Positions 1 to 54,102 of a DNA stretch of 64,000 nucleotides are shown here, in pieces (the first letter of the stretch is position 1; every line of letters begins with the position of its first letter). This DNA comes from a virus. The notes under the pieces are model-generated. The model saw nothing but the letters and a program-made list of their open reading frames with translations. It searched no databases and had not been told where the DNA came from. The DNA is taken from positions 1 to 64,000 of the IMG/VR virus record IMGVR_UViG_3300038309_000252; one strand, written 5' to 3'. Both the position numbers and the translations under genes were made by a program.

Positions 1-162
1 TGGTTCAATAAAACAAGAAACATTAAACAACAAATGATCTAGAACAACAAATTAACCCTGGATCAACCTGGTTCAATTAAACAAGAAACATTGAACAAGA
101 TAAGATTGAATCAATCATCCTTTGTTGGTTTGAGGCAGAAATCCATCTTTAAAATTAAATTT
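1..162. repeat. Modular non-coding repeat array (truncated by window start); inverted copy of 38424-38550
   Basis: Reverse complement of 1-162 matches 38424 onward (AAATTTAATTTTAAAGATGGATTTCTG...TCTTATCTTGTTCAATGTTTCTTGTTTAATTGAACCAG...) with few mismatches. Internal modules TGGTTCAATWAAACAAGAAACATT recur at 1 and about 69. Confidence 0.9.
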
Positions 163-24375: not shown

Positions 24376-25200
24376 ATGTTTCATAATAGACCACCAGAAG
24401 TTGGAAGATCAGTAACAAATAGTTCTGTTGCTAATAACTGGGGTACAGATATTACATCAGGAACAGCAAATGCTTATGGTTCATGGATTCAAATCCATGC
24501 TGGATTCCCATATGATGTATACCAAGTTTATATTGCAATGGGAAAGAATTATGTAGCTGCAGCTAACAGAAATTCATATATTGATATTGGTTATGGACCA
24601 AATAATACAACAGTTCAAATAGTAATTCCTAAATTATGTGGTTCCAATTCTGGTGGAATTGATATGGGATATCGTTATTATGTTTTACCAATGTATTTAC
24701 CAAAAAATACACCAATTTGGGCAAGGCATCAATGTACTACAGCATCTACAGTTATAAATGTAAATATTACTGCATTATGTGGTGAATATATTCCTTACAT
24801 GCCTAAAATTAAATATTATAATCCATTAGGAACACTTGGAACTACTCTTGGTGTGGCAATAGTACCTGGAAATAATACAGAAGGTGCATGGACAGAAATG
24901 ATTGCTTCAACACCTAGAAACTATGTTGGAATGTTAATTACAGGATTATTTGCTGTTGATACTACAATGACTGCGGTTTCATATACTGGTGATGTTGGTA
25001 TTGGTCCATCAGGTTCTGAACAAGTAATTATTGAAAACGGATTTGTTACAACACATGGAACTAATGAAACTGCTTGTGGAATAGCTATAGCTTATTATGT
25101 TGATGTAAAAGCTAATAGTAGAATAGTTGCAAGAGTTTCTTGTAGTGGAACTCCAGATAGCTCATTATCAACTATTGTTTACGGAATGGAAACAATGTAA
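24376..25200 (+). CDS. Cassette 1 protein A (two-domain beta protein)
   Basis: Start moved to ATG 24376 (SD AGGGG, after the terminator). AYGSW..YIDIGYGP..PIWAR and GDVGIGPSG motifs are shared with three paralogues. Confidence 0.75.
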   Translation: MFHNRPPEVGRSVTNSSVANNWGTDITSGTANAYGSWIQIHAGFPYDVYQVYIAMGKNYVAAANRNSYIDIGYGPNNTTVQIVIPKLCGSNSGGIDMGYRYYVLPMYLPKNTPIWARHQCTTASTVINVNITALCGEYIPYMPKIKYYNPLGTLGTTLGVAIVPGNNTEGAWTEMIASTPRNYVGMLITGLFAVDTTMTAVSYTGDVGIGPSGSEQVIIENGFVTTHGTNETACGIAIAYYVDVKANSRIVARVSCSGTPDSSLSTIVYGMETM

Positions 25201-26036
25201 TGCTTCATATTCCAGCAAATCAATATGGAAGAATTGTAACTAGTGGATCATCACTTAATAATTGGGGTCCAACAGTAATTTCTGGACCACAAAATCAATA
25301 TGGTGATTGGATTCAGACTAATCCAGGTTTACCATATGAATCATCATCATTGTTCATTGCTATAGGAACATTATTTTCTTCCGGAAATAGACGTGCTGCA
25401 TATATTGATTTTGCTTATGGACCAGATTCAAGTAATTTGACAGTTGTACTTCCATATTTAAATGGAACTAATTCTGGTGGAATGACCAATGGATGTATAT
25501 TCTATTATTTGCCATTGTGTATACCTCCAAATCAACCATTATGGTCTAGACATCAGAATTATAAATCTAGTGGAAGTACTCCTGTTGTTATTCATACAAC
25601 AATGCAATGTGGCAGAACCATGCCATATTATCCAAGAGTTTATAGGTATGAACCTTTAAGTTCATTGGATACCTCTACTACAACAGCAACACTTATAACA
25701 CCTGGAACATCTGGAGAAGGAGCATGGACAGAAATGATTGCTTCAACACCTAAAAAATATATTGGTACATTGTTAGCAGGATTATATACATTTAATAATA
25801 ACTTAAATGCTGCAGCATATACCGGTGATGTTGGTATTGGTCCATCAGGTTCAGAACAAGTTTTAGTAGAAAACTCATTTTCAATGACACAACAAACAAC
25901 AGAAACATCTCAAGGATTTACCACAGCATTTTATAATGATATTCCTGCTGGTTCTAGACTTTCAGCAAGGGTTTCATGTAGTGCTACACCTTCTAATAAT
26001 GTTTCTGTTTTACTTTATGGAATGATTGGAGGATAG
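25200..26036 (+). CDS. Cassette 1 protein A' (paralogue of A)
   Basis: QYGDW..YIDFAYGP..PLWSRH, EGAWTEMIASTP and GDVGIGPSGSEQV motifs. Confidence 0.75.
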   Translation: MLHIPANQYGRIVTSGSSLNNWGPTVISGPQNQYGDWIQTNPGLPYESSSLFIAIGTLFSSGNRRAAYIDFAYGPDSSNLTVVLPYLNGTNSGGMTNGCIFYYLPLCIPPNQPLWSRHQNYKSSGSTPVVIHTTMQCGRTMPYYPRVYRYEPLSSLDTSTTTATLITPGTSGEGAWTEMIASTPKKYIGTLLAGLYTFNNNLNAAAYTGDVGIGPSGSEQVLVENSFSMTQQTTETSQGFTTAFYNDIPAGSRLSARVSCSATPSNNVSVLLYGMIGG

Positions 26037-26396: not shown

Positions 26397-28964
26397 ATGT
26401 GGGGATATTCACCAGCTCTTATTACTACTGCAGTACTTGGTTCTCCAATATCAGTTACATTAACTAGTCAATTAATTCAAGGAAATCAAAAATCACCATA
26501 TATTGCTTTAGGACCAAAATTAACAGGTACTTCTTCATCTGTTATTAATGGCATAGCAAAATCTGGCATTCAAGAAAATCTAATATCTGTTTCAGGTATT
26601 TCTTCTTCTAATATAACTGTTTTAACAGAAATATGTAGCGTAAAATTAACTGGGCAATCTACTTCAAGTGATAAAGCACCAATCTATATTATAAATGAAG
26701 AATTACTTCCATCAAAATCGTTTACTGTTCTTTATCCAACATCAGTTAATAATAAAACAGAATATTCATATCCTCAATATGATGTAATATCATCATTTCA
26801 AAATTCTGATGTTGAAATATCATGGTCTAGAACAACAAGTATTACAAAACAAACAATTACTTCTGCAATACAGTTATTATCTCCAAATGAGTATACTCAA
26901 TATCAACTTGTTGGTAGACAAATTGCAAGTAATCAAGGGATTCTAAAAAATAAAACTGATGTAGTTTTATCTTCTTTATTATCTTTATCCCTGTATCAAG
27001 AAGATTTAGTTTCTAAAGAATCAGAAGGAATCAAACCTTCTTCACAACTATTTCAATTTACACAAGGAATTGTTACTTTATCAGCATCTGGAAGTACATC
27101 TATTTCCTCTGTAATTGCAAATGTAATTCAAAATGCAGTAATTCCTTCTAGCATTCAAAAAATTACAAGTTATAGTGGAGTTTCTTTAAATCAAGGAATT
27201 ATTTTAGAATGGGTTCAGAAATATTTAACAACTAAAATCATCACCTCTATTTCTGGATCAATTCTGCCATGGATTTCATCATTACAGATGATGTCAATGC
27301 AGCAGCAATTGTTATCATCTATCAAAACTCCAAGTAGTTTTATAAGTCAATTATTTTCTGGATTATCCATTACAGCAATTTCAAATGATATATTGCCAGA
27401 TAATAAATTATCACTTGATAGTATTACTCAATATATCGATATTAATAATATTATAGGTAATCTATCCAATAATATTAATGGTCGACAAGTAAGCAGTTTT
27501 ATTTCACCTAGTCCAAGAAGTACTATTACCCAGTTATTAACAAAGCAATTTCTTGATATTTCCTTGCCATATATTGATTATAAATTAGGAATTACTTTAG
27601 ATTTAATTGAAGCTGTAATAGACCAACAAAAATCTATTGATTATTATAATTCAGGTATTATTGATCTTCTAGTTAATAATCCTATTAATTCATCTATTGC
27701 TTTTTATGGTTATGCTTCACAAATATCACCAATTTTGAATGCAAAGCAGATCATTGCAAATCAAAATGATTTAGAAAGCAATCTATGGGTTGATTTATTA
27801 CAGCAAGAACTTAATCAAGATCTTCAAGACATAGATTTATCTTTTTATTATCGGTTGAAATCCTTATCTTTTAATGGTTATTATCATGATGTTATTCCAA
27901 GTCAGTATTTTGATGCTTTAAGTCAGTCAATTAATAGTGATTATGGAATTGATTTATTGCCACGTATATTCCAGAATATGGACAATCAAACAATTGATTC
28001 CAGATATGGTGATATCAATTTTCTATTTTCACATACATTAATAACGCAATTACTTTATTCTAAACAAGACAGAGTATTACAAAGAATTAGAGAAGGGTTA
28101 GATAACCTTTTCTTTGGTCCTACTCAAGGACTATTGAGTAGCAATATTGAAGAAAAGGTAACAAAACCAAATACATTTATTATATCACAAAAAGAACAAT
28201 TGCCGCCACCAGCATCAAAAGTACGTTTATTGAATACAACTTTATATGGATTGAATGGCAATTTCAAATCTAATAATAGATATACATTATCCTCACAGAA
28301 TACCTATTCAATATTAAGTCCTATAATTGGAAACAATTATTATTCATATGGTAAGTTTTTATTTGATCAAGAGATTAAGTCTATTCAAAATGATATTAAA
28401 CCGAAGTTAAGTTCATTGATTGGATTTCAGAAAATCCATTCTAAATCTAATTTTATAACAACAGAAATTGAATTAAGAGCAATTTCTTCACAATTAGCTT
28501 CTTTATTTCAAGGCAATTTAATTGAAAATTATCTTAAGAATCTTAGAAGTTTAGTAATAGATTCAATTGCCAATTCATTATTACCATATTATTCATTACC
28601 AATAGAATCACAGAATATTTCTAGTTCTTTATATGATTTGCAAGAAGTGCAATTATATCAACAGTTACCAAGAATAAACTTTATTATAAAACAAAATCCA
28701 TTAATTATGGATCATAGTTTATTGCTTAACAATATATCTATTTTAACTAATCAAAATGATATTCTTAATCAGATATATCAAAGCATCATAAGTCAAAATA
28801 TAAATATTGATAATCAACAATTACCCGATTTCAATATATTACTTGCAGGTTTATTCAATAATTTTGATATATCTGATGTATTTCCAAGAATTATATTGCC
28901 ATATGATTTAGCATATGCTCATGTAATTTTTGAACCATTAATTAACAGTGTAATTGAGGAATAA
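26397..28964 (+). CDS. Cassette 1 protein C (long, S/Q/I/L-rich, periodic)
   Basis: Starts MWGYSP; roughly 20-residue periodicity; paralogue of 31031-33298. Confidence 0.7.
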   Translation: MWGYSPALITTAVLGSPISVTLTSQLIQGNQKSPYIALGPKLTGTSSSVINGIAKSGIQENLISVSGISSSNITVLTEICSVKLTGQSTSSDKAPIYIINEELLPSKSFTVLYPTSVNNKTEYSYPQYDVISSFQNSDVEISWSRTTSITKQTITSAIQLLSPNEYTQYQLVGRQIASNQGILKNKTDVVLSSLLSLSLYQEDLVSKESEGIKPSSQLFQFTQGIVTLSASGSTSISSVIANVIQNAVIPSSIQKITSYSGVSLNQGIILEWVQKYLTTKIITSISGSILPWISSLQMMSMQQQLLSSIKTPSSFISQLFSGLSITAISNDILPDNKLSLDSITQYIDINNIIGNLSNNINGRQVSSFISPSPRSTITQLLTKQFLDISLPYIDYKLGITLDLIEAVIDQQKSIDYYNSGIIDLLVNNPINSSIAFYGYASQISPILNAKQIIANQNDLESNLWVDLLQQELNQDLQDIDLSFYYRLKSLSFNGYYHDVIPSQYFDALSQSINSDYGIDLLPRIFQNMDNQTIDSRYGDINFLFSHTLITQLLYSKQDRVLQRIREGLDNLFFGPTQGLLSSNIEEKVTKPNTFIISQKEQLPPPASKVRLLNTTLYGLNGNFKSNNRYTLSSQNTYSILSPIIGNNYYSYGKFLFDQEIKSIQNDIKPKLSSLIGFQKIHSKSNFITTEIELRAISSQLASLFQGNLIENYLKNLRSLVIDSIANSLLPYYSLPIESQNISSSLYDLQEVQLYQQLPRINFIIKQNPLIMDHSLLLNNISILTNQNDILNQIYQSIISQNINIDNQQLPDFNILLAGLFNNFDISDVFPRIILPYDLAYAHVIFEPLINSVIEE

Positions 28965-28968
28965 TTTA

Positions 28969-29820
28969 ATGCTTTATGGACCAACACCATTTGTCAGTAA
29001 CATTGTAAGTAATGGTCAAACAGCTCAAACAGCTTATAAGCTGTTTACTACATTAACTAGTTCATCTACTGCCAATCAATATGGTGATTGGACACAAGTT
29101 TTTTCTGGATTGCCTGATGATGCTTATATGATAAGAGTATTTTCTGGTGCAAATTGGGGGTATGGTCAATCCAGACGTTCTTATATTGATATTGGATATG
29201 GACCAGATGTAGATCATATTACAACAGTTATTCCATATCTTAATGCCTCATATTCAGGAGGATATGATTTTGGATATATTAAACATATTTTACCTTTATA
29301 TATTCCAAAAAATATACCTATTTGGGCAAGAATGCAGCATAATTATGCTAATGTATCATTTGGCATTAATATTACAGCACATTGTGGAGAATATTTGCCA
29401 TTTCAACCTAAAATAACCAAATATACTCCATTAGGATCATTTAATACATCATCAACTGTTGGAGTTCCATTACCTGCAGTAACAACAGGTGGTAGTAATT
29501 GTCCATGGACTATTATTGATACAACAAATAGAGATTTTTGTGGTCTTTTAATGTCAGGGTTTTATTCAACAGATACATCATTAGATAATAATACTTATTG
29601 GGGTGATATTGGAATTGGTCCAAGTGGTAATATTCAAATTGCTGGAAATAATTGTTTAACATGGACCTCTAATACAACAGAACAAGCATTATCAGTATCT
29701 TTTGCTACTTTTATGTCAATAAAATCTGGAACACAAATCTGGGCAAGATACGGTATGGCAAATAATAGGACAGGAAATTATGGATTTACAACAATTGTAT
29801 ATGGATTGGAAAAACTCTAA
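28969..29820 (+). CDS. Cassette 2 protein A
   Basis: ATG 28969 with SD GAGGA; QYGDW..SYIDIGYGP..PIWAR and GDIGIGPSG motifs. Confidence 0.75.
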   Translation: MLYGPTPFVSNIVSNGQTAQTAYKLFTTLTSSSTANQYGDWTQVFSGLPDDAYMIRVFSGANWGYGQSRRSYIDIGYGPDVDHITTVIPYLNASYSGGYDFGYIKHILPLYIPKNIPIWARMQHNYANVSFGINITAHCGEYLPFQPKITKYTPLGSFNTSSTVGVPLPAVTTGGSNCPWTIIDTTNRDFCGLLMSGFYSTDTSLDNNTYWGDIGIGPSGNIQIAGNNCLTWTSNTTEQALSVSFATFMSIKSGTQIWARYGMANNRTGNYGFTTIVYGLEKL

Positions 29821-30668
29821 TGTTTTATACAAATAGTAATCCACAAGGAAATATCAATGTATATTCTGTTAACCCAACATGGTGGGGAGTAAATGCTATA
29901 TCTGGAACACCTGCATATACCTATGGTTCGTGGGTTAAATTATCTAATGGATATAATTATGATATTAATTTTGCTAATATAATGATAGGTGGTGTCTGGA
30001 CATCTGGAGGAATTAGAACAGGATTTATTGATATAGCATATGGTCCAGATGAAAATAATTTGAATATAATTATTCCATATCTTAATATTTGTAAATCTGG
30101 TGGAACTTTACGTAGTCCATTGCAATATTTACTGCCAATGTATGTTCCAAAAAATACTCCAATTTGGGCAAGACATGCAAATGCGTATGGTGGATTAAAT
30201 TGTGCAATTTATATATCTACAAATATTGGATTAATGTATCCTTATGCTCCACAAGTTTTATATTATGAACCATTAGGTGTTGAAAATCTTGGATTATCAA
30301 ATTGTACTGGTATTTCTGTGCCAAATCCATCAACTAATGATCAAGGATTATGGGTAGAAATGACAGCATCAACAACAAAAAACTATATTGGATTAATGAT
30401 GTGTGGTCCTATAACAGATTCAAATAACATTCCTGGTTATGGAACATTAATAACAGGAGATATTGGAATTGGACCAGTAGGTCAAGAAACTTTAATATAT
30501 CCATTTGCAATACAAGCAGTTGTTACAAGTGATGAGGCAACAAATGGGTATTCAATTCCAGAGTTTATTAGTATTCCAAAAAATACAAGAGTAGTTGCTA
30601 GAATATCATCATATGCTAGCTGTGATGTTCCATGCTCTGTAATTGTTTATGGTTTAGTAGGAGTCTGA
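29820..30668 (+). CDS. Cassette 2 protein A'
   Basis: YGSW..FIDIAYGP..PIWARH, WVEMTASTTKNYIG and GDIGIGP motifs. Confidence 0.75.
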   Translation: MFYTNSNPQGNINVYSVNPTWWGVNAISGTPAYTYGSWVKLSNGYNYDINFANIMIGGVWTSGGIRTGFIDIAYGPDENNLNIIIPYLNICKSGGTLRSPLQYLLPMYVPKNTPIWARHANAYGGLNCAIYISTNIGLMYPYAPQVLYYEPLGVENLGLSNCTGISVPNPSTNDQGLWVEMTASTTKNYIGLMMCGPITDSNNIPGYGTLITGDIGIGPVGQETLIYPFAIQAVVTSDEATNGYSIPEFISIPKNTRVVARISSYASCDVPCSVIVYGLVGV

Positions 30669-35242: not shown

Positions 35243-35979
35243 TGTTGAATGAAAACATTTTCTATTATGGGGTAATTAAAAAAACAATAATTTCATTTGG
35301 ACGATTATTTTCAAATATTAGAATTGAAAGAAGGGAAAATGATTCTGTAAATGGAACCATTGTGCAAAATTTGCACATTCCTATATCATATGCTCCCAAA
35401 GAAAAGTGGGTAACTAGAATCGATTCTGCTCCAAATCTAGAAAATAATACTTATGTTTCTTTGCCAAGAATGTCTTATGAAATATCATCAATTTCTTATG
35501 ACAGTACACGCAAAATGTCAAAGATGCAAAAGATTATTTGTAATTCGGAAACTTCACAAAAGTCAATGTATAGTCCTGTTCCTTATGATATTGCAATTAC
35601 ATTGAATATTTTAACTAAAACTCAAGAAGATGGATTACAAATTATTGAACAGATATTACCAACATTTACTCCTGAATATAATATGTCAATAATGATTGTT
35701 CCTGATTTCAACGTTGTTCAGAATATTCCAATTGTATTGAATGGTGTTAGCATGACAGATGAATATGATGGGGATTTTCAAACAAGAAGATTCGTTACCT
35801 ATAATCTAAACTTCAATTTAAAAGTAAATCTATTTGGTCCATCATTAGATAATAAGATTATCCTTAAAACAGAAACAAATGTACGTAATATAAATACTGA
35901 ATTTATTCAAAACACACACCATTCTGAAGGTAATGCAGAAACTTTTGATGTTGTATTAGATGAATGGACAAATAATTAA
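35242..35979 (+). CDS. gp15: Tail sheath stabilizer/terminator gp15
   Basis: FGRLFSNI, IPISYAPKEKW, LPRMSYE and QIIEQILPTFTP motifs. Confidence 0.95.
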   Translation: MLNENIFYYGVIKKTIISFGRLFSNIRIERRENDSVNGTIVQNLHIPISYAPKEKWVTRIDSAPNLENNTYVSLPRMSYEISSISYDSTRKMSKMQKIICNSETSQKSMYSPVPYDIAITLNILTKTQEDGLQIIEQILPTFTPEYNMSIMIVPDFNVVQNIPIVLNGVSMTDEYDGDFQTRRFVTYNLNFNLKVNLFGPSLDNKIILKTETNVRNINTEFIQNTHHSEGNAETFDVVLDEWTNN

Positions 35980-38408
35980 TGTTACTTTATAGAGATAAAC
36001 CAAATCTTAAAGCAGCAGGTGTACCTATTGCTTATACTAAGGAACAATTGAATGAATATATCAAATGTTCTAAAGATCCATTATATTTCATTAAGAACTA
36101 TGCCAAGATCGTTTCTTTAGATAAAGGGATTATTCCATTTTCTCCATTTCCTTATCAAGAAAGAATCATCAAAACAATTCATAATAACAAAAATACCTTA
36201 GCAAAGTTATTTCGTCAAGCTGGTAAAGCACTGCCATTATTTACAGAAATTCCAACACCAACTGGATTCATGAAGATAAAAGATATCCATATTGGGGATC
36301 AAGTCTTTGATTCACAAGGTAACATTTGTAATGTAATTGCTGAATCAAAAGAACAAGAATTAGAAATGTATTACATGAAATTTGATACTGGTGAACATGT
36401 TATTTCATGTAAAGACCATCAATGGGTTGTGTTTAATAAAGAAGATCAAGATACTCCAATTACATGTACTACTTTAGAATTACTTGATTTAATAAATGGT
36501 TCAAATAAATATATTATCAAAAACACTAAACCAGTAAATTATCCTGAAAAGATTCATTTAATAGAACCATATGAATATGGTTATGCTATTGGGTTATTTA
36601 CTAGAGAAATACCACAACAATATTTGTTTGGAGGTATTGAGAAAAGAATAGCATTGGTACAAGGTATCATGGATGCCATTGGGAAAGTAGCAATGCATGC
36701 ATGTAGTGTTTCTGTATTAAATCATAAATGGAGATTTATTGAATCATTCAAGATATTATTACAAAGTCTTGGATTGAATGTAAAAATAAAATATGATCAT
36801 GATATTTACAGAATAATAACATTATCATTTAATGAGTCAAACTTTCCTGTATTTCGTAATTCAGAGTTGCAATCAAAATTACCAAAATCTGTTGAATGTT
36901 GCAAAACAATTATTAGTATTTCAGAAATACCTTCATTAATTTGGGGCAAATGCATTCAAGTAGATAGTCCAGACTCTACTTATCTTTGCACAAAAGAATA
37001 TATTCCAACACATAATTCAACTATTGTTGCAGGTTATTTTGCTTGGTATACATTATTTAATGACAATAAAACATCTATTATTCTTGCAAATAAACAACAA
37101 ATTGCTATTGAGATTTTTAGCAGAGTACAATTTATTATTGAACATCTTCCAATTTGGTTGCAACAAGGTGTTTTAGAATGGAATAAAAAGTCATTGGTAT
37201 TGGAAAATGGTTCAAGATGTTTAGCATCAGCAACATCTATTTCTGCAATTCGTGGTATGTCTGCAAATATGATTTTGCTAGATGAGTTTGCTCATTTACT
37301 TCCTTCTTTAGCTGATGAGTTTATTGCATCAGTGTTTCCAACATTATCATCATCAGAATCATCAAAATTAGTAATTGTTTCTACACCTAATGGATTAAAT
37401 CATTACCATAAATTGTGGATAGAAGCTATCAACAAAAATAATGATTTTGTTACAGTTGAAGGTCATTGGTCTGAAAATCCAACAAGAAATCAAAAATGGG
37501 CAGATGAACAATTATTAAAATTAGGTGAAGTAAAGTATAGACAAGAAATTGAATGCTCTTTTGAAGGATCATCATATACTTTAATTAGTGGTGTTAAATT
37601 AGCAACATTACCAATTATTAATCCATTATTTACTCGTGATGGATTAGAAATATATAAAAGACCAGAACCTAACACACAATATGTTATAACAGTTGATGTT
37701 GCAAGAGGAACTTATTCAGACTATACAGCATTTTCAATATTTGATATATCAGAAATGCCTTATGAAATTGTAGCAATTTATAAAAATAATTTAATATCAA
37801 CACTTGAATTTCCACATTTATTATATAATATGACACAACAATATAATAATGCTTATTTGCTTATTGAATTAAATGATTTAGGTGAAGAAGTATCAAATAT
37901 AATTTGGTATGATTATGAATATGAAAATATTTACTTTACAACAGAAAATTACAAAACAAGAAATAGTCAATTATCACAGAGTGGTGGAAAACCTGGTATT
38001 AGAACTACATTAAAAGTAAAATCACTTGGTTGTTCTATTCTTAAAGAACTAGTTGAAAAGGATCAATTAATAATTAATTCATATAAAATTATAGAAGAAC
38101 TAGGTGTTTTTGTAGTTAATAAAAGATCATATCAAGCTATTAATACAACAATAAATGATGATTTAGTAACAACATTATGGTTGTTTGCATGGTTAACAAA
38201 ACAAACTGTTTTTCAACAATTAACAGATATTAATTTGAGACAAAAATTAACAGAACAAAAACAACAATATATTGATTCGACACTAACACCATTTGGTTTT
38301 TATGATAACGGATTTAATCCAATAGAGAATCAAATGGTTGATAATTCAAGAATTCCGGAAGGTCCATTATTTAATTTAACAGATGATCAAAACCAATTAT
38401 TGAGATGA
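35979..38408 (+). CDS. gp17: Terminase large subunit gp17 (intein-containing)
   Basis: Walker A RQAGK/ST split by an intein; ILLDEFAH, VSTPNG, VDVARG and DDLVTTL motifs. Confidence 0.95.
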   Translation: MLLYRDKPNLKAAGVPIAYTKEQLNEYIKCSKDPLYFIKNYAKIVSLDKGIIPFSPFPYQERIIKTIHNNKNTLAKLFRQAGKALPLFTEIPTPTGFMKIKDIHIGDQVFDSQGNICNVIAESKEQELEMYYMKFDTGEHVISCKDHQWVVFNKEDQDTPITCTTLELLDLINGSNKYIIKNTKPVNYPEKIHLIEPYEYGYAIGLFTREIPQQYLFGGIEKRIALVQGIMDAIGKVAMHACSVSVLNHKWRFIESFKILLQSLGLNVKIKYDHDIYRIITLSFNESNFPVFRNSELQSKLPKSVECCKTIISISEIPSLIWGKCIQVDSPDSTYLCTKEYIPTHNSTIVAGYFAWYTLFNDNKTSIILANKQQIAIEIFSRVQFIIEHLPIWLQQGVLEWNKKSLVLENGSRCLASATSISAIRGMSANMILLDEFAHLLPSLADEFIASVFPTLSSSESSKLVIVSTPNGLNHYHKLWIEAINKNNDFVTVEGHWSENPTRNQKWADEQLLKLGEVKYRQEIECSFEGSSYTLISGVKLATLPIINPLFTRDGLEIYKRPEPNTQYVITVDVARGTYSDYTAFSIFDISEMPYEIVAIYKNNLISTLEFPHLLYNMTQQYNNAYLLIELNDLGEEVSNIIWYDYEYENIYFTTENYKTRNSQLSQSGGKPGIRTTLKVKSLGCSILKELVEKDQLIINSYKIIEELGVFVVNKRSYQAINTTINDDLVTTLWLFAWLTKQTVFQQLTDINLRQKLTEQKQQYIDSTLTPFGFYDNGFNPIENQMVDNSRIPEGPLFNLTDDQNQLLR
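36228..37016 (+). mobile_element. Class 3 intein (263 aa) in terminase Walker A, with degenerate LAGLIDADG remnant
   Basis: Starts Ala (ALPLFTEIPTPTGF), block B DHQW, block F KCIQVDS, ends IPTHN before Ser; LVQGIMDAIG remnant. Confidence 0.88.
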
Positions 38409-38423
38409 GACACAGTTTCTTTA

Positions 38424-38805
38424 AAATTTAATTTTAAAGATGGATTTCTGCTTCAAACCAACAAAGGACGATTGATTCAATCTTATCTTGTTCAATGTTT
38501 CTTGTTTAATTGAACCAGCTTGATCTAGGTTAATTTGTTGTTCTAGATTATTTATTGTTCAAGGTTACATTGTTTAATTGAACCAGCTTGATCTAGGTTA
38601 ATTTGTTGTTTAAGGTTTCTTGTTTTATTGTTCTAGATCATTTGTTGTTTAATGTTTCTTGTTTAATTGAACCAGGTTGATCCATGGTTAATTTGTTGTT
38701 CTAGATCATTTATTGTTCAAGGTTACATTGTTTTATGTTACCTTTTATGGTATAATGTTTCTTGTTTTATTGATCTAGGTTAATTTAATGTTCTAGATCG
38801 TTAAA
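38424..38805. repeat. Modular non-coding repeat array between gp17 and gp18
   Basis: TTGTTTAATTGAACCAG(C/G)TTGATC..GGTTAATTTGTTGTT at about 38502, 38570 and 38659, interleaved with TTCTAGAT, TGTTCAAGGTTACATTG and GTTTCTTGTTT modules. No ORF of 60 aa or more. Confidence 0.9.
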
Positions 38806-38833
38806 GTTTTTTTGTTCCTTAAAGAACACATTT

Positions 38834-38862
38834 ATTATACCATATTTTTGGACAAAAGTCAA
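38834..38862 (-). promoter_or_regulatory. Sigma70-type promoter pointing into the repeat array
   Basis: Minus strand TTGACT-17 nt-TATAAT with TG extended -10. Confidence 0.75.
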
Positions 38863-38907
38863 CTGTATACAGGATTTCATGATTATTCTACAAAAAACTG
38901 GTAAATA

Positions 38908-38914
38908 CTAAATA
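38908..38914 (+). promoter_or_regulatory. Probable late promoter (CTAAATA) for gp18
   Basis: Intergenic motif upstream of the gp18 SD GAGGGG. Confidence 0.6.
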
Positions 38915-38968
38915 TTTTCGAAATTGTAGAATATTAAAGCAAATATTCATTATTAAGAGGGGTTTCAT

Positions 38969-40915
38969 ATGCCATTCCAACTATCACCTGGTGTTTTAAT
39001 CGTAGAAAAGGATTTAACAAATATCATTCCAGCAGTTGCTACTTCAACAGGTGCATTTGTTGGTACATTCCCATGGGGACCAGTATTAGATCCTACTTTA
39101 GTAGATTCAGAAATTAGTTTAGTAAATCGATTTGGAAAACCACAAACAGATAATGCTACATCATTTTTTACAGCAGCAAACTTTTTATCATATACAAATA
39201 ATTTGCAACTTATCCGTGTTGATACAGATAATCACCGTAATGCTGTTGCTGTACAATCTGGAACAGTAACAGGAGTAACTATTACAAATGGTGGTACAGG
39301 ATTTGCTGATCCTGTTACAGTAATATTTGGACCACCACAAGAAGTTGGTGGTGTACAAGCTACTGGTCATGCAATAGTTGGTGCTGGAGGAGCAATAGAA
39401 AGTATTATAATTGATAATCCAGGATCAGGATATACTAATGAACCGTCTATTACAGTTTCTAGTCAAGATGGAATTGGTTTTGTTGGTGATGTTAATATTA
39501 TTATTGGTGGTATTAAAATCAATAATGAACAAGATTATATGGAACAATACGTCAATGGCGCAGGATTAGTTGGTTGTTTTGCTGCCAAGTTTCCTGGTGC
39601 TTTAGGGAATAGTATTAGAGTTGAAATGGCAGATGAATCAACCTTTACCAATTGGGTTTATAATGCAGAATTTGATTCACCACCAAATACTTCAACTTAT
39701 GCATCTTCAGTTGGTGGTGCAAATGATGAAGTCCATATTATTATTATTGATGACGATGGACTATGGACTGGTCAACGTGGTGCTATTATTGAGAAATTTG
39801 CTTTTGCCTCAAAAGCTAGTGATGCTCGTAATTCTGATGGTACAAATATGTACTATAAGAATGTTATTAATACTAATTCAAAGTATATTTGGTGGATGGA
39901 CCATCCTGAGTCTTCTGCTTTAGAAACATCTGGTTCAGATTGGGGTAGTGAAGCTCATAATCATACTTTTAAATCATTAAATACAGTTTATGGGGTTTCT
40001 TTATCAGGTGGTGTTGATGATTTAATTGCAACTGAAGGTCAATTAATGAGAGCATGGTCAATATTTGCTAATGCAGAACTTTATGACATTAGTTTACTTC
40101 CAACTGGTCAAGTAACACCTCTTGTTGCCGCATATGTTCTTCAGAATGTAGTAGATGCAAGACGTGATTGTGTAGCATTTATTTCTCCAACTACTCCAGA
40201 AGGTTCTGTTATTCGTGGTATGGACCTTGCAGAACAGACTGTTAATTTCAGAAATAATGTTCCATTTAATATCACTAGTTCTTATGGAGTACTTGATTCT
40301 GGATGGAAATATCAATATGATAGTTATAATGACGTATACCGATGGGTACCTTTGAATGGTGATATTGCTGGTCTTTGCGCAAGAACAGATTATACCAATG
40401 ATCCATGGTGGTCTCCTGGTGGATTAAATCGTGGACAGATCAAGAACGTTGTGAAATTATCTTTCAACCCATCTAAGGCAGAACGAGATGAACTTTATAA
40501 AAATGGTATTAATCCAGTATGTTCATTCCCTGGTCAAGGAACTGTACTTTTTGGTGATAAAACTTTATTAGCAAAACCAAGTGCATTTGATAGGATTAAC
40601 GTTAGAAGATTGTTTATTGTTCTAGAAAAAGCAATTGCAATTGCCGCTAAGTACCAATTGTTCGAGTTCAATGATTCATTCACTAGAGCACAATTTCGCT
40701 CAATGGTAGAACCATTTTTACGTGATGTACAAGGACGACGTGGTATTATTGATTTCCGTGTTAAGTGTGATGATACCAATAATACTGGTGAAGTAATTGA
40801 TAGAAATGAATTTATTGCTGATATTTACATCAAACCTGCAAGATCAATCAATTTCATTACCTTAAATTTCGTAGCTGTACGTACAGGTGTTTCTTTTGAT
40901 GAAGTTGGAGCATAA
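38969..40915 (+). CDS. gp18: Tail sheath protein gp18
   Basis: QLSPGVLIVEKDLT, WGP, PWWSPGGLNRG and FDRINVRRLF motifs. Confidence 0.97.
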   Translation: MPFQLSPGVLIVEKDLTNIIPAVATSTGAFVGTFPWGPVLDPTLVDSEISLVNRFGKPQTDNATSFFTAANFLSYTNNLQLIRVDTDNHRNAVAVQSGTVTGVTITNGGTGFADPVTVIFGPPQEVGGVQATGHAIVGAGGAIESIIIDNPGSGYTNEPSITVSSQDGIGFVGDVNIIIGGIKINNEQDYMEQYVNGAGLVGCFAAKFPGALGNSIRVEMADESTFTNWVYNAEFDSPPNTSTYASSVGGANDEVHIIIIDDDGLWTGQRGAIIEKFAFASKASDARNSDGTNMYYKNVINTNSKYIWWMDHPESSALETSGSDWGSEAHNHTFKSLNTVYGVSLSGGVDDLIATEGQLMRAWSIFANAELYDISLLPTGQVTPLVAAYVLQNVVDARRDCVAFISPTTPEGSVIRGMDLAEQTVNFRNNVPFNITSSYGVLDSGWKYQYDSYNDVYRWVPLNGDIAGLCARTDYTNDPWWSPGGLNRGQIKNVVKLSFNPSKAERDELYKNGINPVCSFPGQGTVLFGDKTLLAKPSAFDRINVRRLFIVLEKAIAIAAKYQLFEFNDSFTRAQFRSMVEPFLRDVQGRRGIIDFRVKCDDTNNTGEVIDRNEFIADIYIKPARSINFITLNFVAVRTGVSFDEVGA

Positions 40916-40923
40916 ATAGTAAT

Positions 40924-42405
40924 ATGAAATCCAATGCTGCTCTATGGGAAAAATATGACAAAGATCAGTTAATTTCTGATCTTAATGTTATGCCTATAGA
41001 GCAGCTAATGGAGAAATACAATTCTTCAAGAAGATGCATTCATGTAGCTTGTAGAAAGTTTGATATTCTATTAGATTCTAGACTGTTTGGTAAAAAGCTA
41101 AAACATCAAATACCGGAAAAAGATATTTTAATGGAGCAATTAAAACAAGGCAAACAACACGCTGCTCAAGTATTCAATTGTTCTATTCCTGTTGTTAATT
41201 CTTGGATTAAGAAGCATAACATCACTATAGAATCATATTATGGAGTGAAAGCTGTTTTAGACAAGAATCTAGTACTTGATTTAATTTCTCAAGGATTATC
41301 AGATCGAGATATAGCAAAACGTTTTGGGGTTTCTTTTGCTACAATTGAAAGATTTGCTTCTAGACATAATGTAACAGTCCACAAGAAAGGTATTTCCTGG
41401 AAAGACGTTGATCAGAAATTAGAAACTAATTTCAATTGGATTTGTGAACAGAATCAGACTAGAACCATTTTAGACATTAGTACAGAATTGGGTATTTCTG
41501 CATCCAAGACACTTAAGTTTCTAGATTCCAAAGGGTTTGATATTGTTAGTCATTCAATAAATAAATCAAAAGGTGAATTGGAAGTCAAGGATTACATTTC
41601 TTCTTTGGGGGTTTCTTGTCAATCTGTTAAAAGAAAGTTCAATGACAAAGTATTTGAACTGGACATCTTTGTGCAAGACAAAATGTTTGCCATTGAATAC
41701 TGCGGGGAATATTGGCATTCTGACGAACAGAAACCCAAAATGTATCATTATCAGAAATATCAATGGTGTAAAGATCAAGGGATTACATTATTTACTATAT
41801 TTGAGCATCAATGGAAACACAAGAAAGAAATCATTAAATCCATGATCAAAGCTAGATTAGGTCTAGCAAAGAAGATTCATGCCAGACAGACAATTGTCAA
41901 AGACATTTCTGCTGATGAAGCAAAGACATTCTATGAAGAAAATCATTTGCAAGGTTATACACCTAGTACAATTCACAAAGGATTGTTTTTCGAAAATGAA
42001 CTAGTTGCAGCTATGTCAATCGTCAAGTCTAGATTCAGAAAAGATGAAGAATGGGAAATGTCCAGACTGGCATTCAAACTACACCATGTGATTGTTGGTG
42101 GTGCATCTAAGCTGCTGAAACAATTTAAAGATTACTCAATGATATCTTATGCTGATCTTTGTATTGGTGACGGGCAAGTCTATGAAAAGATGGGATTTAT
42201 CAGATTAAAGAACACTACACCTAACTATTTCTACTTTCATAAATATTCTGGAATTATTCATTCACGAATGACATGCCAGAAAAAGAATCTAAATAATATT
42301 TTATCATCATTTAATCCGATTTTGACAGAATATGAAAATATGTCAAATAATGGTTATTTACGAGTTTGGACTTGTGGCAATGCAATTTTTCAAAGAAAAT
42401 TATAA
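40924..42405 (+). CDS. Free-standing endonuclease (HTH repeats + Vsr/Hef-like PD-(D/E)XK + GNAT-like C-terminus)
   Basis: ELDIF..AIEYCGEYWHS nuclease motif; HTH repeats; HLQG..WEMSRL..ISYAD. Interrupts gp18-gp19. Confidence 0.75.
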   Translation: MKSNAALWEKYDKDQLISDLNVMPIEQLMEKYNSSRRCIHVACRKFDILLDSRLFGKKLKHQIPEKDILMEQLKQGKQHAAQVFNCSIPVVNSWIKKHNITIESYYGVKAVLDKNLVLDLISQGLSDRDIAKRFGVSFATIERFASRHNVTVHKKGISWKDVDQKLETNFNWICEQNQTRTILDISTELGISASKTLKFLDSKGFDIVSHSINKSKGELEVKDYISSLGVSCQSVKRKFNDKVFELDIFVQDKMFAIEYCGEYWHSDEQKPKMYHYQKYQWCKDQGITLFTIFEHQWKHKKEIIKSMIKARLGLAKKIHARQTIVKDISADEAKTFYEENHLQGYTPSTIHKGLFFENELVAAMSIVKSRFRKDEEWEMSRLAFKLHHVIVGGASKLLKQFKDYSMISYADLCIGDGQVYEKMGFIRLKNTTPNYFYFHKYSGIIHSRMTCQKKNLNNILSSFNPILTEYENMSNNGYLRVWTCGNAIFQRKL

Positions 42406-51689: not shown

Positions 51690-52326
51690 TAAAAATATGA
51701 AATTAATTCAAAACAATCAAAAACAAATTGATCTTTTAGAAGAAAAAGCTAAGCTGATCTATAATAAAGTTAACACTGGCAAATTAAATAAGTTCATCAT
51801 TGATGATGTTATTAATATTATTGATGGTCCAGGTATTGGAAGAAATCAGCATAAATCATCTGGAATTAGATTAGTAAATGTAAGGTTATTTCATAATGAT
51901 GAGTTTAATTTTAATACAAGTAATTTTATTGATCAGTTAGAAGTTGAAAAGAAATATAAAAAATATCTTCTAAAAGAAAATGATTTACTTGTAGTATCAG
52001 GAACAATGTCTTTTGGTAAACATATTACAATTAGACATATTCATTTACCATTACTTCTTAATAGCTATATCTATAATTTCACTCCAAAAGAACCATTAAA
52101 TACATGGTATCTTAAAGCATATATTACCCATGGTGGTTTCAAAGAAAAGTTAAAGTCTGTAACATCAGGTTCAATTGTTATTGGATCAAATAAAAATAAT
52201 ATTAAATTATTAAATATAGGGTTACCTAATATAAATACTTTATGTGATATAGAAGAACAGTTTTCTGAAATATACAACAAGAAAAAGTTATTATTAGATG
52301 AAAATTATTGCTTGAGAAATAATTAG
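51682..52326 (+). CDS. hsdS: Half-size type I R-M specificity subunit (single TRD)
   Basis: N-terminal helix QIDLLEEKAKLIY, TRD features (KYLLKENDLLV, SGS, IKLLNIGLPN) and a C-terminal helix; next to hsdM. Confidence 0.7.
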   Translation: MIDKNMKLIQNNQKQIDLLEEKAKLIYNKVNTGKLNKFIIDDVINIIDGPGIGRNQHKSSGIRLVNVRLFHNDEFNFNTSNFIDQLEVEKKYKKYLLKENDLLVVSGTMSFGKHITIRHIHLPLLLNSYIYNFTPKEPLNTWYLKAYITHGGFKEKLKSVTSGSIVIGSNKNNIKLLNIGLPNINTLCDIEEQFSEIYNKKKLLLDENYCLRNN

Positions 52327-53448: not shown

Positions 53449-54102
53449 ATGAAAAAAATAACTCATGATTTCATTCAAAATAATCAAAAACAAATTGATC
53501 TTTTAGAAGAAAAAGCTAAATTAATCTATAATAAATCATTATCAAACCAAACAGAAAAATTAAATTTTGATGATGTTATTGATATCATTGAAGGACCAGG
53601 TATTGGAAGAAATCAGCATAGACAAAATGGGATTAGAATAAGTAATATTAGACTATTCAACAATGATGAATTTAATTTTAAAACAGCTAACTTTATTGAC
53701 GCATTAGAAGTTGAAAATAAATATAAAAAATATCTTCTAAAAGAAAATGATATTCTAGTAGTTGCTGCAACTACAGTATTAGGAAAATCTGTATTAGTTA
53801 GAAGTAATCATTTACCTTTGTTATTAAATGTACATCTTTATAGATTAACACCAAAAGAACCATTAAATACATGGTATCTTAAAGCATATATTACACATGG
53901 TGATTTTAAAAAGAAATTAAATTCAATAAGATCTGGATCAACATCAATATGGCAGACACAGATTGACAGCATAAAATCATTGAACATAAAGTTGCCAAAT
54001 CTAAACACATTGTGTGATATAGAAGAACAGTTTTCTGAAATATACAGTAAAAAAAAGGCATTATTAGATGAAAATCACAAAATCATGCATGCGGATTCAT
54101 AG
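53449..54102 (+). CDS. hsdS: Second half-size type I specificity subunit
   Basis: Close paralogue of 51682-52326. Confidence 0.7.
   Translation: MKKITHDFIQNNQKQIDLLEEKAKLIYNKSLSNQTEKLNFDDVIDIIEGPGIGRNQHRQNGIRISNIRLFNNDEFNFKTANFIDALEVENKYKKYLLKENDILVVAATTVLGKSVLVRSNHLPLLLNVHLYRLTPKEPLNTWYLKAYITHGDFKKKLNSIRSGSTSIWQTQIDSIKSLNIKLPNLNTLCDIEEQFSEIYSKKKALLDENHKIMHADS

What the first reader, a model, noticed from the sequence alone, without database searches (positions are those of the whole stretch)
38424..38862. Promoter-driven non-coding modular repeat array: candidate phage ncRNA or transcription-primed origin
Seen: a near-consensus sigma70 promoter (TTGACT-17-TATAAT, TG extended) on the minus strand points into about 400 bp with no ORF. 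The array is built from shuffled modules (AACAACAAATTAACC, GATCAAGCTGGTTCAATTAAACAA, TCTAGAACAA, AAACAAGAAACATT), and the predicted RNA is very A-rich and G-poor. It sits back-to-back with the gp18 late promoter and converges on the 3' end of gp17. Known: T4 origins are primed by transcripts forming R-loops, and oriE has iterons near an early promoter. Inference: an iteron/R-loop origin, or a multivalent RNA sponge for a host RNA-binding or defence protein (type III antitoxin-like repeat RNA is one possibility). It is not a CRISPR array because there are no unique spacers.
Basis: partly seen in the sequence, partly recalled or inferred. Interest (0 to 1): 0.75.

Follow-up and report, generated by a model that had tools for sequence, protein, structure and literature searches.

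The report
Four-copy promoter-driven A-rich phage element
A marine T4-like phage carries four scattered copies of a 350-440-base non-coding unit, each with the same very strong early promoter and a shuffled array of A-rich modules; it is probably an abundant decoy RNA or a set of replication origins, and nothing like it was found elsewhere.

Summary
The 132.5-kb circular genome holds copy A at window 38421-38877 (minus strand), B across the contig junction (window 1-162 is its end), C at genome 64313-64745 and D at 103420-103892. All four share an identical TTGACT-17-TATAAT promoter with TG extension, of the phage's early class. They also share a nearly identical ~100-nt leader and a ~68-nt 3' block. 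The middle is built of modules that all end in AACAA. The predicted RNA is 46-49% A and 11% G, with 8-12 AACAANAAA motifs predicted to be unpaired. No ORF, Rfam family, relative or public sequence matches it. Related phages lack it at three of the four sites. No expression data exist. My best reading (0.4) is a high-dosage early ncRNA that acts as a multivalent decoy for a protein binding A-rich single strands, with host Hfq as the lead candidate and phage RegA or gp32 as others. The main rival (0.25) is a set of transcription-primed R-loop origins. A type III antitoxin or oriE-type iteron identity is not supported. The element is an orphan and is interesting but functionally unproven.

The parts
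38863..38877 (-). 5' boundary of copy A. It holds AATC plus the perfect 10-bp palindrome CTGTATACAG, which abuts the -35 hexamer. Copies A, B and C share this stretch; D does not.
   Evidence: homology among A, B and C starts here, whereas D's homology starts exactly at the -35 hexamer.
38834..38862 (-). Sigma70-type promoter TTGACT-17-TATAAT with TG extension, identical in all four copies. It belongs to the phage's early class (A-Y-A-G before TTGAC[A/T]).
   Evidence: 11 of 12, TG yes; four identical copies at 38862-, 64730-, 103420+, 132331+; early promoter family cATAG-TTGACA at 104.9-111.8 kb.
38734..38833 (-). Conserved 5' domain of the predicted RNA. It has a 5'-proximal hairpin GUUCU-UUAA-GGAAC (38814-38827), a hairpin GAUCUAG-[14-nt A-rich loop]-CUAGAUC (38772-38799) and a small hairpin UACC-AUAAAA-GGUA (38739-38752).
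   Evidence: the GAUCUAG/CUAGAUC and UACC/GGUA hairpins are in the whole-element folds of all four copies, the 5'-proximal hairpin in two of them, C and B; 1-4 mismatches in 130 nt among A, C and D.
38489..38733 (-). Variable array of modules that all end in AACAA. The modules are ..GATCTAGAACAA, ATTAACCYRGATCAASCTGGTTCAATTAAACAA, GAAACMTTRAACAA, TGTAACCTTGAACAA, TAAAACAA and CAA. The array carries most of the AACAANAAA motifs, and module order and number differ between copies.
   Evidence: segmentation; AACAA spacings 3, 8, 14, 17, 33-34; 12 motifs in A; motifs unpaired with probability 0.80; balanced half-sites.
38421..38488 (-). Conserved 3' block, the only U/G-rich part (..GAUUGAAUCAAUC.UCCUUUGUUGGUUUGA.GCAGAAAUCC..). 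It ends in an all-A/U hairpin CUUUAAAAU-UAA-AUUUUAAAG. There is no canonical intrinsic terminator.
   Evidence: 1-4 mismatches in 68 nt among the four copies; folds; 0 terminator-like sites.
1..162 (+). 3' part of copy B, comprising the last modules and the 3' block. Its promoter and 5' part lie at genome 132317-132535, across the circular junction. It is inverted relative to copy A.
   Evidence: inverted pair, 113 nt, 94%; 65-nt terminal overlap; alignment of A and B.
35979..38408 (+). Large terminase (gp17-like, 809 aa). Its 3' end converges on copy A.
   Evidence: PHROG terminase large subunit, 4e-83; Pfam Terminase_6N and Terminase_6C.
38969..40915 (+). Tail sheath (gp18-like, 648 aa). A candidate late promoter word CTAAATA at 38908-38914 lies back-to-back with the element's promoter.
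   Evidence: PHROG tail sheath, 1e-131; CTAAATA also upstream of the gp25-like gene and of the ORF at 46394.

Best explanation
The element is a stand-alone gene for a non-coding RNA of about 350-440 nt, present in four copies. Host sigma70 RNA polymerase transcribes it very strongly at the start of infection.

The RNA has a 5' hairpin domain and a 3' U/G-rich block. Between them is a largely single-stranded 'beads on a string' array that displays 8-12 copies of AACAANAAA, a word that fits the A-rich AAnAAnAA pattern.

I infer that it acts in trans and stoichiometrically, as a multivalent decoy for a protein that binds A-rich single-stranded RNA. The lead candidate is the distal face of host Hfq, in the way that the 407-nt CrcZ RNA with six A-rich stretches titrates Hfq in Pseudomonas. 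The phage's own RegA or gp32 are the alternatives. Four copies, the strongest promoter in the genome and many motifs per RNA would together give the high dosage a sponge needs.

Shown here: copy number, promoter identity and class, composition, motif content, predicted accessibility, absence of coding capacity and absence of homologues.

Inferred only: that the element is transcribed, that the RNA is the active product, and which protein it binds.
For: - The identical near-consensus promoter is an integral part of all 4 copies. In copy D the homology begins exactly at the -35 hexamer.
- The promoter has the A-Y-A-G extension of this phage's early promoters and the only exact extended -10 among them.
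- The RNA strand is 46-49% A and 11% G in every copy, whatever its orientation in the genome. The copies hold four of the six most A-rich, G-poor 300-nt windows of the genome, including the top two.
- There are 8-12 AACAANAAA motifs per copy against 0.5-0.6 in shuffles. Their predicted unpaired probability is 0.78-0.90, against 0.45-0.49 for non-motif positions.
- The half-sites GAUCUAG and CURGAUC are balanced in all copies (4/4, 4/4, 3/3, 3/3) and can be paired as neighbours. The CUAGAUC to CUGGAUC change keeps pairing as G-U only on the promoter-driven strand.
- Copy A folds with z = -5.0 against dinucleotide shuffles.
- The AACAA grid is 14, 17 and 34 nt, not a DNA helical repeat.
- Three of the four copies point against their neighbouring genes, so the element is not a leader of a downstream gene.
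- Precedent: CrcZ is 407 nt with six A-rich stretches and binds the Hfq distal face (PMC4063720, passages). RegA and gp32 operators are A+U-rich and unstructured (PMC3014915, passages), and RegA is encoded here.
Against: - There is no expression evidence: no RNA run was listed, so this question is simply untested.
- No homologue exists anywhere, so there is no covariation. All pairing support rests on one-sided changes among four paralogues.
- Permuting module order leaves the folding energy unchanged (z -0.5, -2.1, +1.1, -0.5). No defined global fold is therefore indicated, and the z of -5 only reflects repeated complementary words.
- Generic (ARN) tracts of 3 or of 4 or more triplets are not enriched over composition-matched shuffles. 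The Hfq link therefore rests on one 9-mer, which owes its count to module duplication.
- No intrinsic terminator was found.
- The translation start regions of this phage do not resemble the modules, so a RegA-operator mimic is not indicated.
- The host is unknown, so the presence of Hfq in it is unknown.
- Even spacing around the genome, and sites next to replication and recombination genes, fit origins equally well.
Confidence: 0.4

Rival explanations
1. The four copies are transcription-activated replication origins. The early promoter fires into the repeat region, the purine-rich RNA stays annealed to the T-rich template as an R-loop, and it primes leading-strand synthesis, as at T4 oriF and oriG. 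Four dispersed copies give a multi-origin genome like that of T4.
For: - T4 uses at least five dispersed origins. oriF and oriG consist of a promoter plus a downstream A+T-rich unwinding element with a persistent R-loop. oriE depends on an early promoter and has direct repeats (PMC3016281, passages).
- Here there are four copies 26-39 kb apart around a 132.5-kb circle.
- Copy D is back-to-back with the promoter of the primase gene. Copy C lies beside the UvsW-like helicase genes. Copy B lies directly upstream of the gp25-like gene.
- The promoter is integral to the element, and the strand asymmetry puts purines in the RNA.
- The elements have the highest GATC density in the genome: 26 of 462 sites lie in 1.3% of the DNA. 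The phage also encodes a D12-class adenine methyltransferase.
Against: - According to the same review, R-loop formation at oriF needs no specific sequence. Conserved modules, a conserved 3' block and balanced half-sites are therefore not explained.
- A+T content is 70-74% against 69.6% genome-wide, so the region is not a marked unwinding element.
- There is no inflection of cumulative GC or AT skew at any copy, although skew in such phages follows transcription, so this is weak evidence.
- None of the copies lies at a switch of coding strand.
- Repeat spacing is irregular and off the helical repeat, unlike the evenly spaced 12-mers of oriE.
- The element is absent from relatives at the sites examined.
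Confidence: 0.25
2. It is a selfish or merely tolerated promoter-bearing repeat that has spread to four intergenic sites. Its modules expand and shuffle by slippage and recombination at the shared AACAA ends. It would matter only as a substrate for homologous recombination, such as inversions, deletions and module exchange, like an oversized relative of the PeSL cassettes of T4-type phages.
For: - All four copies sit in gaps between conserved core genes that are tight in relatives. The terminase|sheath junction is tight in 15 of 15 loci. The gp5-like|gp25 gap is about 10 nt in the closest long relative.
- The element is an orphan in every collection searched.
- Every module ends in the same 5-mer, which is a natural crossover point.
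- Module order is not tuned for folding.
- Copy D carries about 95 nt of unrelated insert.
- Related phage G003 has dispersed stem-loop + early promoter + ribosome-binding-site cassettes of the PeSL type (PeSL concept from the abstract of PMC4122927).
- The genome carries other mobile-looking DNA: a 493-aa endonuclease-like gene after the sheath gene and a 260-aa insert in the terminase.
Against: - The promoter, leader and 3' block differ by only 1-4 positions among the copies, while the middle is rearranged. That pattern points to constraint or homogenisation of functional ends rather than uniform decay.
- No terminal inverted repeats or target-site duplications were seen.
- About 1.7 kb, with the strongest promoter of the genome firing against late and replication genes, is costly for a lytic phage to tolerate.
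- PeSLs are small and drive ORFs; this element drives none.
Confidence: 0.15
3. It is an anti-defence decoy RNA for a host RNA-cleaving abortive-infection toxin. It would be either a mimic of a type III antitoxin repeat RNA or a bulk substrate rich in single-stranded AAAU or ACA sites that soaks up a ToxN- or MazF-like endoribonuclease.
For: - Precedent: phage phiTE carries pseudo-ToxI repeats that expand and recombine to neutralise ToxN (PMC3475682, passages).
- Here the array is a repeat ncRNA with variable repeat number, under an early promoter and present at high dosage.
- There are 10-12 AAAU and 19-24 ACA words per copy. That these words are cleavage preferences of ToxN- and MazF-like enzymes is recalled, not shown by any search.
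Against: - The units are irregular: Tandem Repeats Finder gives periods of 14-90 with 60-87% matches. Known type III antitoxins have fixed 36-nt-type units.
- No toxin gene lies next to any copy.
- There is no match to any Rfam family.
- The word counts follow from the A-rich composition.
Confidence: 0.1
4. It is a double-stranded DNA site array bound by a phage or host protein, for example a packaging, partition or methylation-controlled site that recognises GATCTAG or TTGTTYWA words. On this reading the promoter is incidental.
For: - 19 of the 27 GATCTAG sites in the genome, counting both orientations, lie in the four elements.
- GATC sites are clustered there.
- Copy A adjoins the terminase gene.
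- The phage encodes an adenine methyltransferase.
Against: - A duplex-binding array needs neither a strong strand asymmetry nor a perfectly conserved promoter as its 5' boundary.
- Site spacing is not in phase with the helix.
- T4-type headful packaging is not known to need a pac site; this is recalled, not shown by any search.
Confidence: 0.07

Closest known systems
CrcZ (and CrcY) Hfq-titrating RNAs of Pseudomonas
   Same: Both are about 400 nt and non-coding, and both have several A-rich AAnAAnAA-type stretches presented single-stranded. The proposed action is the same: stoichiometric titration of a protein that binds A-rich RNA. CrcZ is 407 nt with six A-rich stretches and binds the Hfq distal face (PMC4063720).
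   Different: There is no sequence or Rfam relationship. This element is phage-encoded, present in four copies, and driven by a sigma70 early promoter rather than an RpoN/CbrB-dependent one. It has 8-12 motifs set in shuffled modules with hairpins. Binding to Hfq is untested and the host is unknown.
pseudo-ToxI repeat RNA of phage phiTE (mimic of a type III antitoxin)
   Same: Both are phage-encoded non-coding repeat RNAs whose repeat number changes by expansion and recombination, and which work by dosage as a decoy (PMC3475682).
   Different: phiTE has one locus of regular 36-nt units homologous to a known antitoxin. This element has four loci of irregular modules, no similarity to any catalogued antitoxin, and no known toxin target.
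T4 replication origins oriF/oriG (promoter + unwinding element, R-loop) and oriE (early promoter + 12-nt repeats)
   Same: A promoter fires into an A+T-rich non-coding stretch. There are several dispersed copies per genome. An early-type promoter and direct repeats occur as at oriE (PMC3016281).
   Different: T4 origins share no sequence with each other, whereas these four are one family. The repeats here are heterogeneous modules on a 14, 17 and 34-nt grid, not evenly spaced 12-mers. Origin activity is untested.
PeSL cassettes (promoter-early stem-loop) of T4-type phages
   Same: Both are dispersed repeats carrying an early promoter, lie between genes, and are likely substrates for homologous recombination (PMC4122927 abstract). 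Such cassettes were seen in relative G003.
   Different: PeSLs are small terminator-plus-promoter units that drive ORFs in hyperplastic regions. This element is 380-470 bp, drives no ORF, lies between core genes, and consists mostly of an A-rich module array.

Membership tests
Type III antitoxin repeat RNA (ToxI/CptI/TenpI type) | Head-to-tail repeats of one fixed unit (about 34-45 nt), nearly identical to each other | tested here: not met
   Tandem Repeats Finder gives overlapping periods of 14, 17, 33, 36, 51 and 90 with 60-87% matches. Segmentation shows six different module types in varying order.
Type III antitoxin repeat RNA (ToxI/CptI/TenpI type) | Endoribonuclease toxin gene directly downstream | tested here: not met
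   The downstream neighbours of the four copies are the terminase 3' end, a 126-aa ORF with no family, an 86-aa ORF with no family (on the opposite strand) and the gp25-like baseplate gene. A phage mimic would not need a toxin gene.
Type III antitoxin repeat RNA (ToxI/CptI/TenpI type) | Similarity to a known antitoxin RNA | tested here: not met
   No Rfam 15 family matches at gathering score in the window. None matches at E<=1 in loci holding copies C and D and the 5' half of copy B (the 3' half of B, window 1-162, was covered only at gathering score). Only three chance-level hits at E 1-3.8, to eukaryotic and viral RNA families (two microRNA precursors, one of a herpesvirus, and a snoRNA), appear over copy A. 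Which antitoxins Rfam holds was not checked.
CrcZ-type Hfq sponge | Several A-rich AAnAAnAA stretches in an RNA of about 400 nt | tested here: met
   There are 8-12 AACAANAAA motifs per copy in 341-433 nt, predicted unpaired with probability 0.78-0.90.
CrcZ-type Hfq sponge | Homology to CrcZ/CrcY, and an RpoN/CbrB-dependent promoter | tested here: not met
   There is no Rfam match. The promoter is of the sigma70 type. The crcZ promoter type is taken from PMC4063720.
CrcZ-type Hfq sponge | [quoted passage not shown] | not testable with these tools
   This needs EMSA or co-immunoprecipitation, and the host is unknown. (ARN) tracts of 4 or more triplets are not enriched over shuffles: 1 observed against 2.2-2.9 expected.
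T4 oriF/oriG-type R-loop origin | Promoter followed by an A+T-rich DNA unwinding element | tested here: inconclusive
   The promoter is present. The downstream region is only 70-74% A+T against 69.6% genome-wide.
T4 oriF/oriG-type R-loop origin | Persistent R-loop and origin activity | not testable with these tools
   Only DNA contigs of 4 runs were available. Cumulative skew shows no inflection at the copies, which is weak evidence either way.
T4 oriE-type iteron cluster | [quoted passage not shown] | tested here: not met
   AACAA-to-AACAA spacings are 3 (14 times), 14 (17 times), 17 (5 times), 33-34 (11 times) and others. The modules are heterogeneous.
PeSL cassette | Small terminator stem-loop plus early promoter that drives an adjacent ORF | tested here: not met
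   An early-class promoter is present. No terminator-like stem-loop was found, and no ORF follows in 3 of the 4 copies.
CsrB/RsmZ-type CsrA sponge | Many GGA motifs in hairpin loops | tested here: not met
   There are only 2-3 GGA per copy.
CRISPR array | Identical repeats separated by unique spacers | tested here: not met
   All segments between repeats are themselves repeated modules.

The most novel reading that the evidence does not exclude
A lytic T4-like phage encodes a four-gene family of 'super-sponge' RNAs. Within minutes of infection these RNAs would flood the cell with dozens of single-stranded AAnAAnAA sites per genome copy. They would strip the host's Hfq, or another A-rich-RNA-binding regulator, from its targets. 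This would be a virus-made functional analogue of CrcZ, used for host takeover.
Probability: 0.2. Interest if true: 0.85.

Novelty: new variant of a known kind. Interest (0 to 1): 0.58.

Why it matters
A 2010 review states that no trans-acting regulatory RNA had been functionally characterised in T4 (PMC3014915, passage). It is also not known how marine T4-like phages start replication.

This element offers a concrete, clonable candidate for one of these two gaps. [quoted passage not shown] Or it may be the first sequence-defined origin family in this group.

Four nearly identical repeats of 100 bp or more, in both orientations, should also drive inversions of the 38-kb baseplate-to-terminase block. 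Long reads could show this.

Tried and rejected
Homologue searches, all negative:
- blastn 'distant' of 38409-38968 against GenBank phages: no match.
- blastn of copy A against 80 IMG/VR loci found through the sheath protein: only 15-26-nt chance hits.
- Search of 5 large related records: best E 0.096.
- Five exact-pattern scans of viral contigs: one chance hit inside a coding region and four blanks among.
- One scan of metagenome contigs: 12 hits, all unrelated on inspection.
- One scan of genome contigs: 3 hits, all unrelated.
- Earlier-findings look-up for look-alikes: none.

Rfam: nothing.

Expression: no RNA holder was listed. The only holders are 4 DNA runs of one marine-sediment study, kept as contigs. 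They show copy number and flanks only.

Other tests that gave nothing useful:
- Leaderless 12-codon ORF at the RNA start: set aside, because the likely start lies inside or after the AUG.
- Two-codon AUG-AUC-UAG mini-ORFs: set aside, because the AUG is AUA in two units and absent in the leader unit.
- An 11-codon ORF on the opposite strand of the 3' block: no ribosome-binding site, so set aside.
- tRNA-like T-arm (GGUUCAAUU): no complementary stem; aragorn found nothing in the loci holding copies C and D and the 5' half of copy B; copy A and window 1-162 were not scanned.
- Antisense targets of the 3' block in the phage genome: only chance matches of 11 nt or less.
- RegA-operator mimicry: the start regions of 31 genes printed do not resemble the modules.
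- DGR or retron: no reverse transcriptase.
- Phage-encoded Hfq or cold-shock protein: none.
- TATAAATA as the late promoter: 16 sites, mostly inside genes. CTAAATA looks more likely.
- Hybrid-stability calculation for R-loops: not run, because I have the RNA-DNA parameters only from memory.

Literature: the search 'phage-encoded / Hfq / sponge / non-coding RNA' found 14 papers. None of the 13 listed titles or abstract starts describes a phage RNA that titrates Hfq (listing only). Supplements were not opened.
Full report
WHAT IS THERE

The window is the first 64 kb of a single 132,600-base virus record. Its last 65 bases repeat its first 65, so it closes into a 132,535-bp circle with 30.4% G+C.

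The closure is backed by synteny. In the two long related records, the homologue of the 1512-aa gene at the contig end is followed directly by the gp25-like gene, which opens the contig.

The phage is a distant T4-like myovirus. Its sheath protein is 45-57% identical to those of Stenotrophomonas, Pelagibacter, Methylophilales and Sinorhizobium myophages. It is at most 76% identical to any IMG/VR contig. Four DNA runs of one marine-sediment study hold it.

THE OBSERVATION

- Promoter: TTGACT-17-TATAAT with TG lies on the minus strand at 38862-38834. It scores 11 of 12.
- ORFs: nothing longer than 38 aa.
- Repeats: overlapping tandem-repeat calls with scores up to 264, and the named modules.
- Composition: the predicted RNA is 48.6% A and 11% G.
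- Flanks: large terminase at 35979-38408 and tail sheath at 38969-40915.

The main correction is the copy number. An exact-promoter scan of the whole genome finds the same 29-bp promoter four times, at 38862(-), 64730(-), 103420(+) and 132331(+). Self-comparison gives these element limits:

- A: 38421-38877
- C: 64313-64745
- D: 103420-103892
- B: 132317-132535 plus 1-162

The 'copy at the window start' is therefore the 3' end of copy B.

In the four DNA runs, unitigs shared by the copies have 3.0-5.4 times the depth of the single-copy flanks. The loose ends at the promoter side are the flanks of B, C and D. The copies are real.

ANATOMY

Each copy begins at the promoter. Copies A, B and C also have AATC plus the palindrome CTGTATACAG just upstream.

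About 100 nt of leader follow, differing at 1-4 of 130 positions among A, C and D. The leader holds three hairpins:

- a 5'-proximal hairpin GUUCU-UUAA-GGAAC;
- a hairpin GAUCUAG-[14 nt]-CUAGAUC;
- a small hairpin UACC-AUAAAA-GGUA.

Each copy ends in a 68-nt block with 1-4 mismatches between copies. This block is the only U/G-rich part. It closes with an all-A/U hairpin, and no canonical terminator was found.

Between the two ends lie 10-16 modules of six kinds, and every module ends in AACAA. Order and number differ between copies:

- A has 83 nt that B lacks.
- B has an 11-nt loop duplication.
- D carries about 95 nt of unrelated sequence.

The AACAA-to-AACAA spacings are 3, 14, 17 and 33-34 nt. 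That is a 17-nt grid, not a DNA helical repeat.

The predicted RNAs are 341-433 nt and 46-49% A.

CONTEXT

- The promoter has the A-Y-A-G extension before TTGAC[A/T] that marks about a dozen promoters of the early island at 104.9-111.8 kb. It has a better -10 than any of them. The element should therefore be transcribed early, by host polymerase.
- The copies lie between core genes:
  - A: terminase|sheath.
  - C: UvsW-like helicase plus a 126-aa ORF | late sigma gp55. It is back-to-back with an early promoter.
  - D: directly upstream of the primase gene, back-to-back with that gene's promoter.
  - B: 1512-aa gene | gp25-like baseplate gene.
- Three of the four point against their neighbours, so the element is not a leader of a downstream gene.
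- On the circle, B and A face each other across the 38-kb baseplate-to-terminase block.

IS IT CONSERVED? NO.

- In 15 of 15 related IMG/VR loci that I inspected, the terminase ORF is followed by the sheath ORF after a gap of about 25-75 bp. These 15 were chosen as the closest or longest of the 80 loci returned.
- The closest long relative (G001, 69% sheath identity) has about 10 nt between the gp5-like gene and gp25. G003 has an ordinary ORF and a promoter between uvsW and gp55.
- The primase site could not be checked, because neither record holds a primase match.
- Every similarity or pattern search came back empty or with chance hits. This covers GenBank phages, IMG/VR, JGI metagenome contigs, GTDB genomes, five large related records, Rfam and the scan's own earlier notes.
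- Records very near the window's own may have been withheld by the tools.

RNA OR DNA?

For an RNA product:

- The promoter is the conserved 5' boundary of the element.
- The strand bias follows the promoter, not the genome strand.
- The two half-sites GAUCUAG and CURGAUC are equal in number in every copy (4/4, 4/4, 3/3, 3/3). They can always be paired with a neighbour.
- The common variant CUGGAUC keeps the pairing as a G-U pair on the transcribed strand only.
- Copy A folds 5 sd better than dinucleotide shuffles.
- The AACAANAAA motifs are predicted unpaired with probability 0.78-0.90, against 0.45-0.49 for non-motif positions.

Against a defined fold:

- Permuting the modules of each copy gives the same folding energy (z -0.5, -2.1, +1.1, -0.5; 250 permutations each).
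- There is no two-sided compensatory change.
- All comparisons are among four paralogues.

I therefore read the RNA as hairpins strung on long single-stranded A-rich linkers, not as an ornate structure.

WHAT MIGHT IT DO?

The most economical reading of three facts together is a stoichiometric decoy. Those facts are four copies, the strongest early promoter, and 8-12 exposed copies of one A-rich word per RNA.

- Hfq. AACAANAAA fits the AAnAAnAA pattern. Hfq binds A-rich stretches of mRNA with its distal face. CrcZ is 407 nt with six A-rich stretches and titrates Hfq (PMC4063720, passages). [quoted passage not shown]
- Phage RegA. T4 sites are 'A+U rich ... [quoted passage not shown] RB69 SELEX gives AAUAAUAAUAAnA.
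- Phage gp32. It spreads over an unstructured A+U-rich stretch with UUAA(A) repeats (PMC3014915, passages). RegA is encoded at 72590-72952.

Caveats:

- Generic (ARN) runs are not enriched over composition-matched shuffles. All AAnAAnAA hits are the one duplicated 9-mer.
- The phage's own start regions do not look like the modules.
- The host is unknown.

THE ORIGIN RIVAL

- T4 has at least five dispersed origins.
- oriF and oriG are a promoter plus an A+T-rich unwinding element that holds the transcript as an R-loop.
- oriE uses an early promoter and has 12-nt repeats (PMC3016281, passages).

Several features here fit that pattern:

- Four copies lie 26-39 kb apart.
- Two copies lie beside primase and UvsW-like genes.
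- The RNA is purine-rich.
- The elements have the densest GATC clusters of the genome, with 26 of 462 sites.
- The phage encodes a D12-class methyltransferase.

Against it:

- The same review says the oriF R-loop needs no specific sequence.
- The region is barely more A+T-rich than the genome.
- The repeats are not evenly spaced.
- There is no skew inflection or strand switch at the copies.

From memory only, T4 oriF lies just upstream of gene 25, as copy B does. I did not verify this.

OTHER RIVALS

- A selfish or recombinogenic cassette. Relative G003 has ordinary PeSL-type stem-loop + promoter + ribosome-binding-site repeats. This reading explains the orphan status and the shared AACAA junctions. 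It does not explain the near-identity of both ends.
- A type III antitoxin mimic, as in phiTE. It fails on unit regularity and on similarity.
- A duplex-DNA site array. It explains neither the promoter nor the strand bias.

VERDICT

The element is a lineage-specific, four-copy unit with an early promoter and a modular A-rich array, and it has no catalogued relative. I put 0.40 on a decoy ncRNA, 0.25 on R-loop origins, 0.15 on a selfish or recombination cassette, 0.10 on an anti-toxin decoy and 0.07 on a DNA site array.

It is worth an experiment, because both leading readings would fill a known gap for T4-like phages. Everything beyond the anatomy is inference.

Noticed in passing
window 35979-38408 (residues about 85-346 of the 809-aa terminase): The large terminase carries an insert of about 260 aa that is absent from the homologues in G001 and G003, where alignments cover residues 1-84 and 347-808 only. 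Pfam finds nothing in the insert. It could be an intein-like or other mobile insertion.
   Followed up: partly
window 40924-42405: A 493-aa gene lies directly after the sheath gene. It matches PHROG 'homing endonuclease / HNH endonuclease' families and has Pfam helix-turn-helix hits plus a weak hit to an MTES_1575-type restriction endonuclease domain. It looks like a free-standing mobile endonuclease between core tail genes.
   Followed up: partly
genome 104932-111769 (outside the window) and 64764: This is a family of early promoters with the extended form cATAG-TTGACA-17-TAtcAT, firing in both directions from about 106.5 kb. One of them (64764+, upstream of gp55) is back-to-back with copy C.
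   Followed up: partly
genome 106868-107069, 108554-110188 and 115357-115885 (outside the window): The early region holds a perfect 108-bp tandem duplication and several 80-93% duplicated segments (self-blast).
   Followed up: no
window 59732-60604 (minus strand): The phage encodes a D12-class N6-adenine DNA methyltransferase (Pfam MethyltransfD12, 40.7 bits). GATC is not avoided in the genome: 462 sites, against 370-547 expected.
   Followed up: partly
G003 (IMG/VR relative, 126.8 kb): 15452-15623, 25924-26005, 28439-28522, 94229-94361, 108877-108928 and 114724-114863: These are dispersed cassettes of 60-130 bp. On the opposite strand they read as a stem-loop, a TTTACA-17-TATAAT promoter, a conserved leader, a ribosome-binding site and an ATG. 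They are the classical PeSL type and are unrelated to the element studied here.
   Followed up: partly
window 24469-26036 and 29074-30668; 51703-52305 and 53470-54075: These are duplicated coding cassettes within the tail-fibre and late region, with direct repeat families D1-D3, D6, D8 and D10 at 62-92% identity.
   Followed up: no
genome 103646-103653, inside copy D: The insert of about 95 nt that is unique to copy D contains a perfect T4-type late promoter word, TATAAATA, in the sense direction. No ORF follows it.
   Followed up: no
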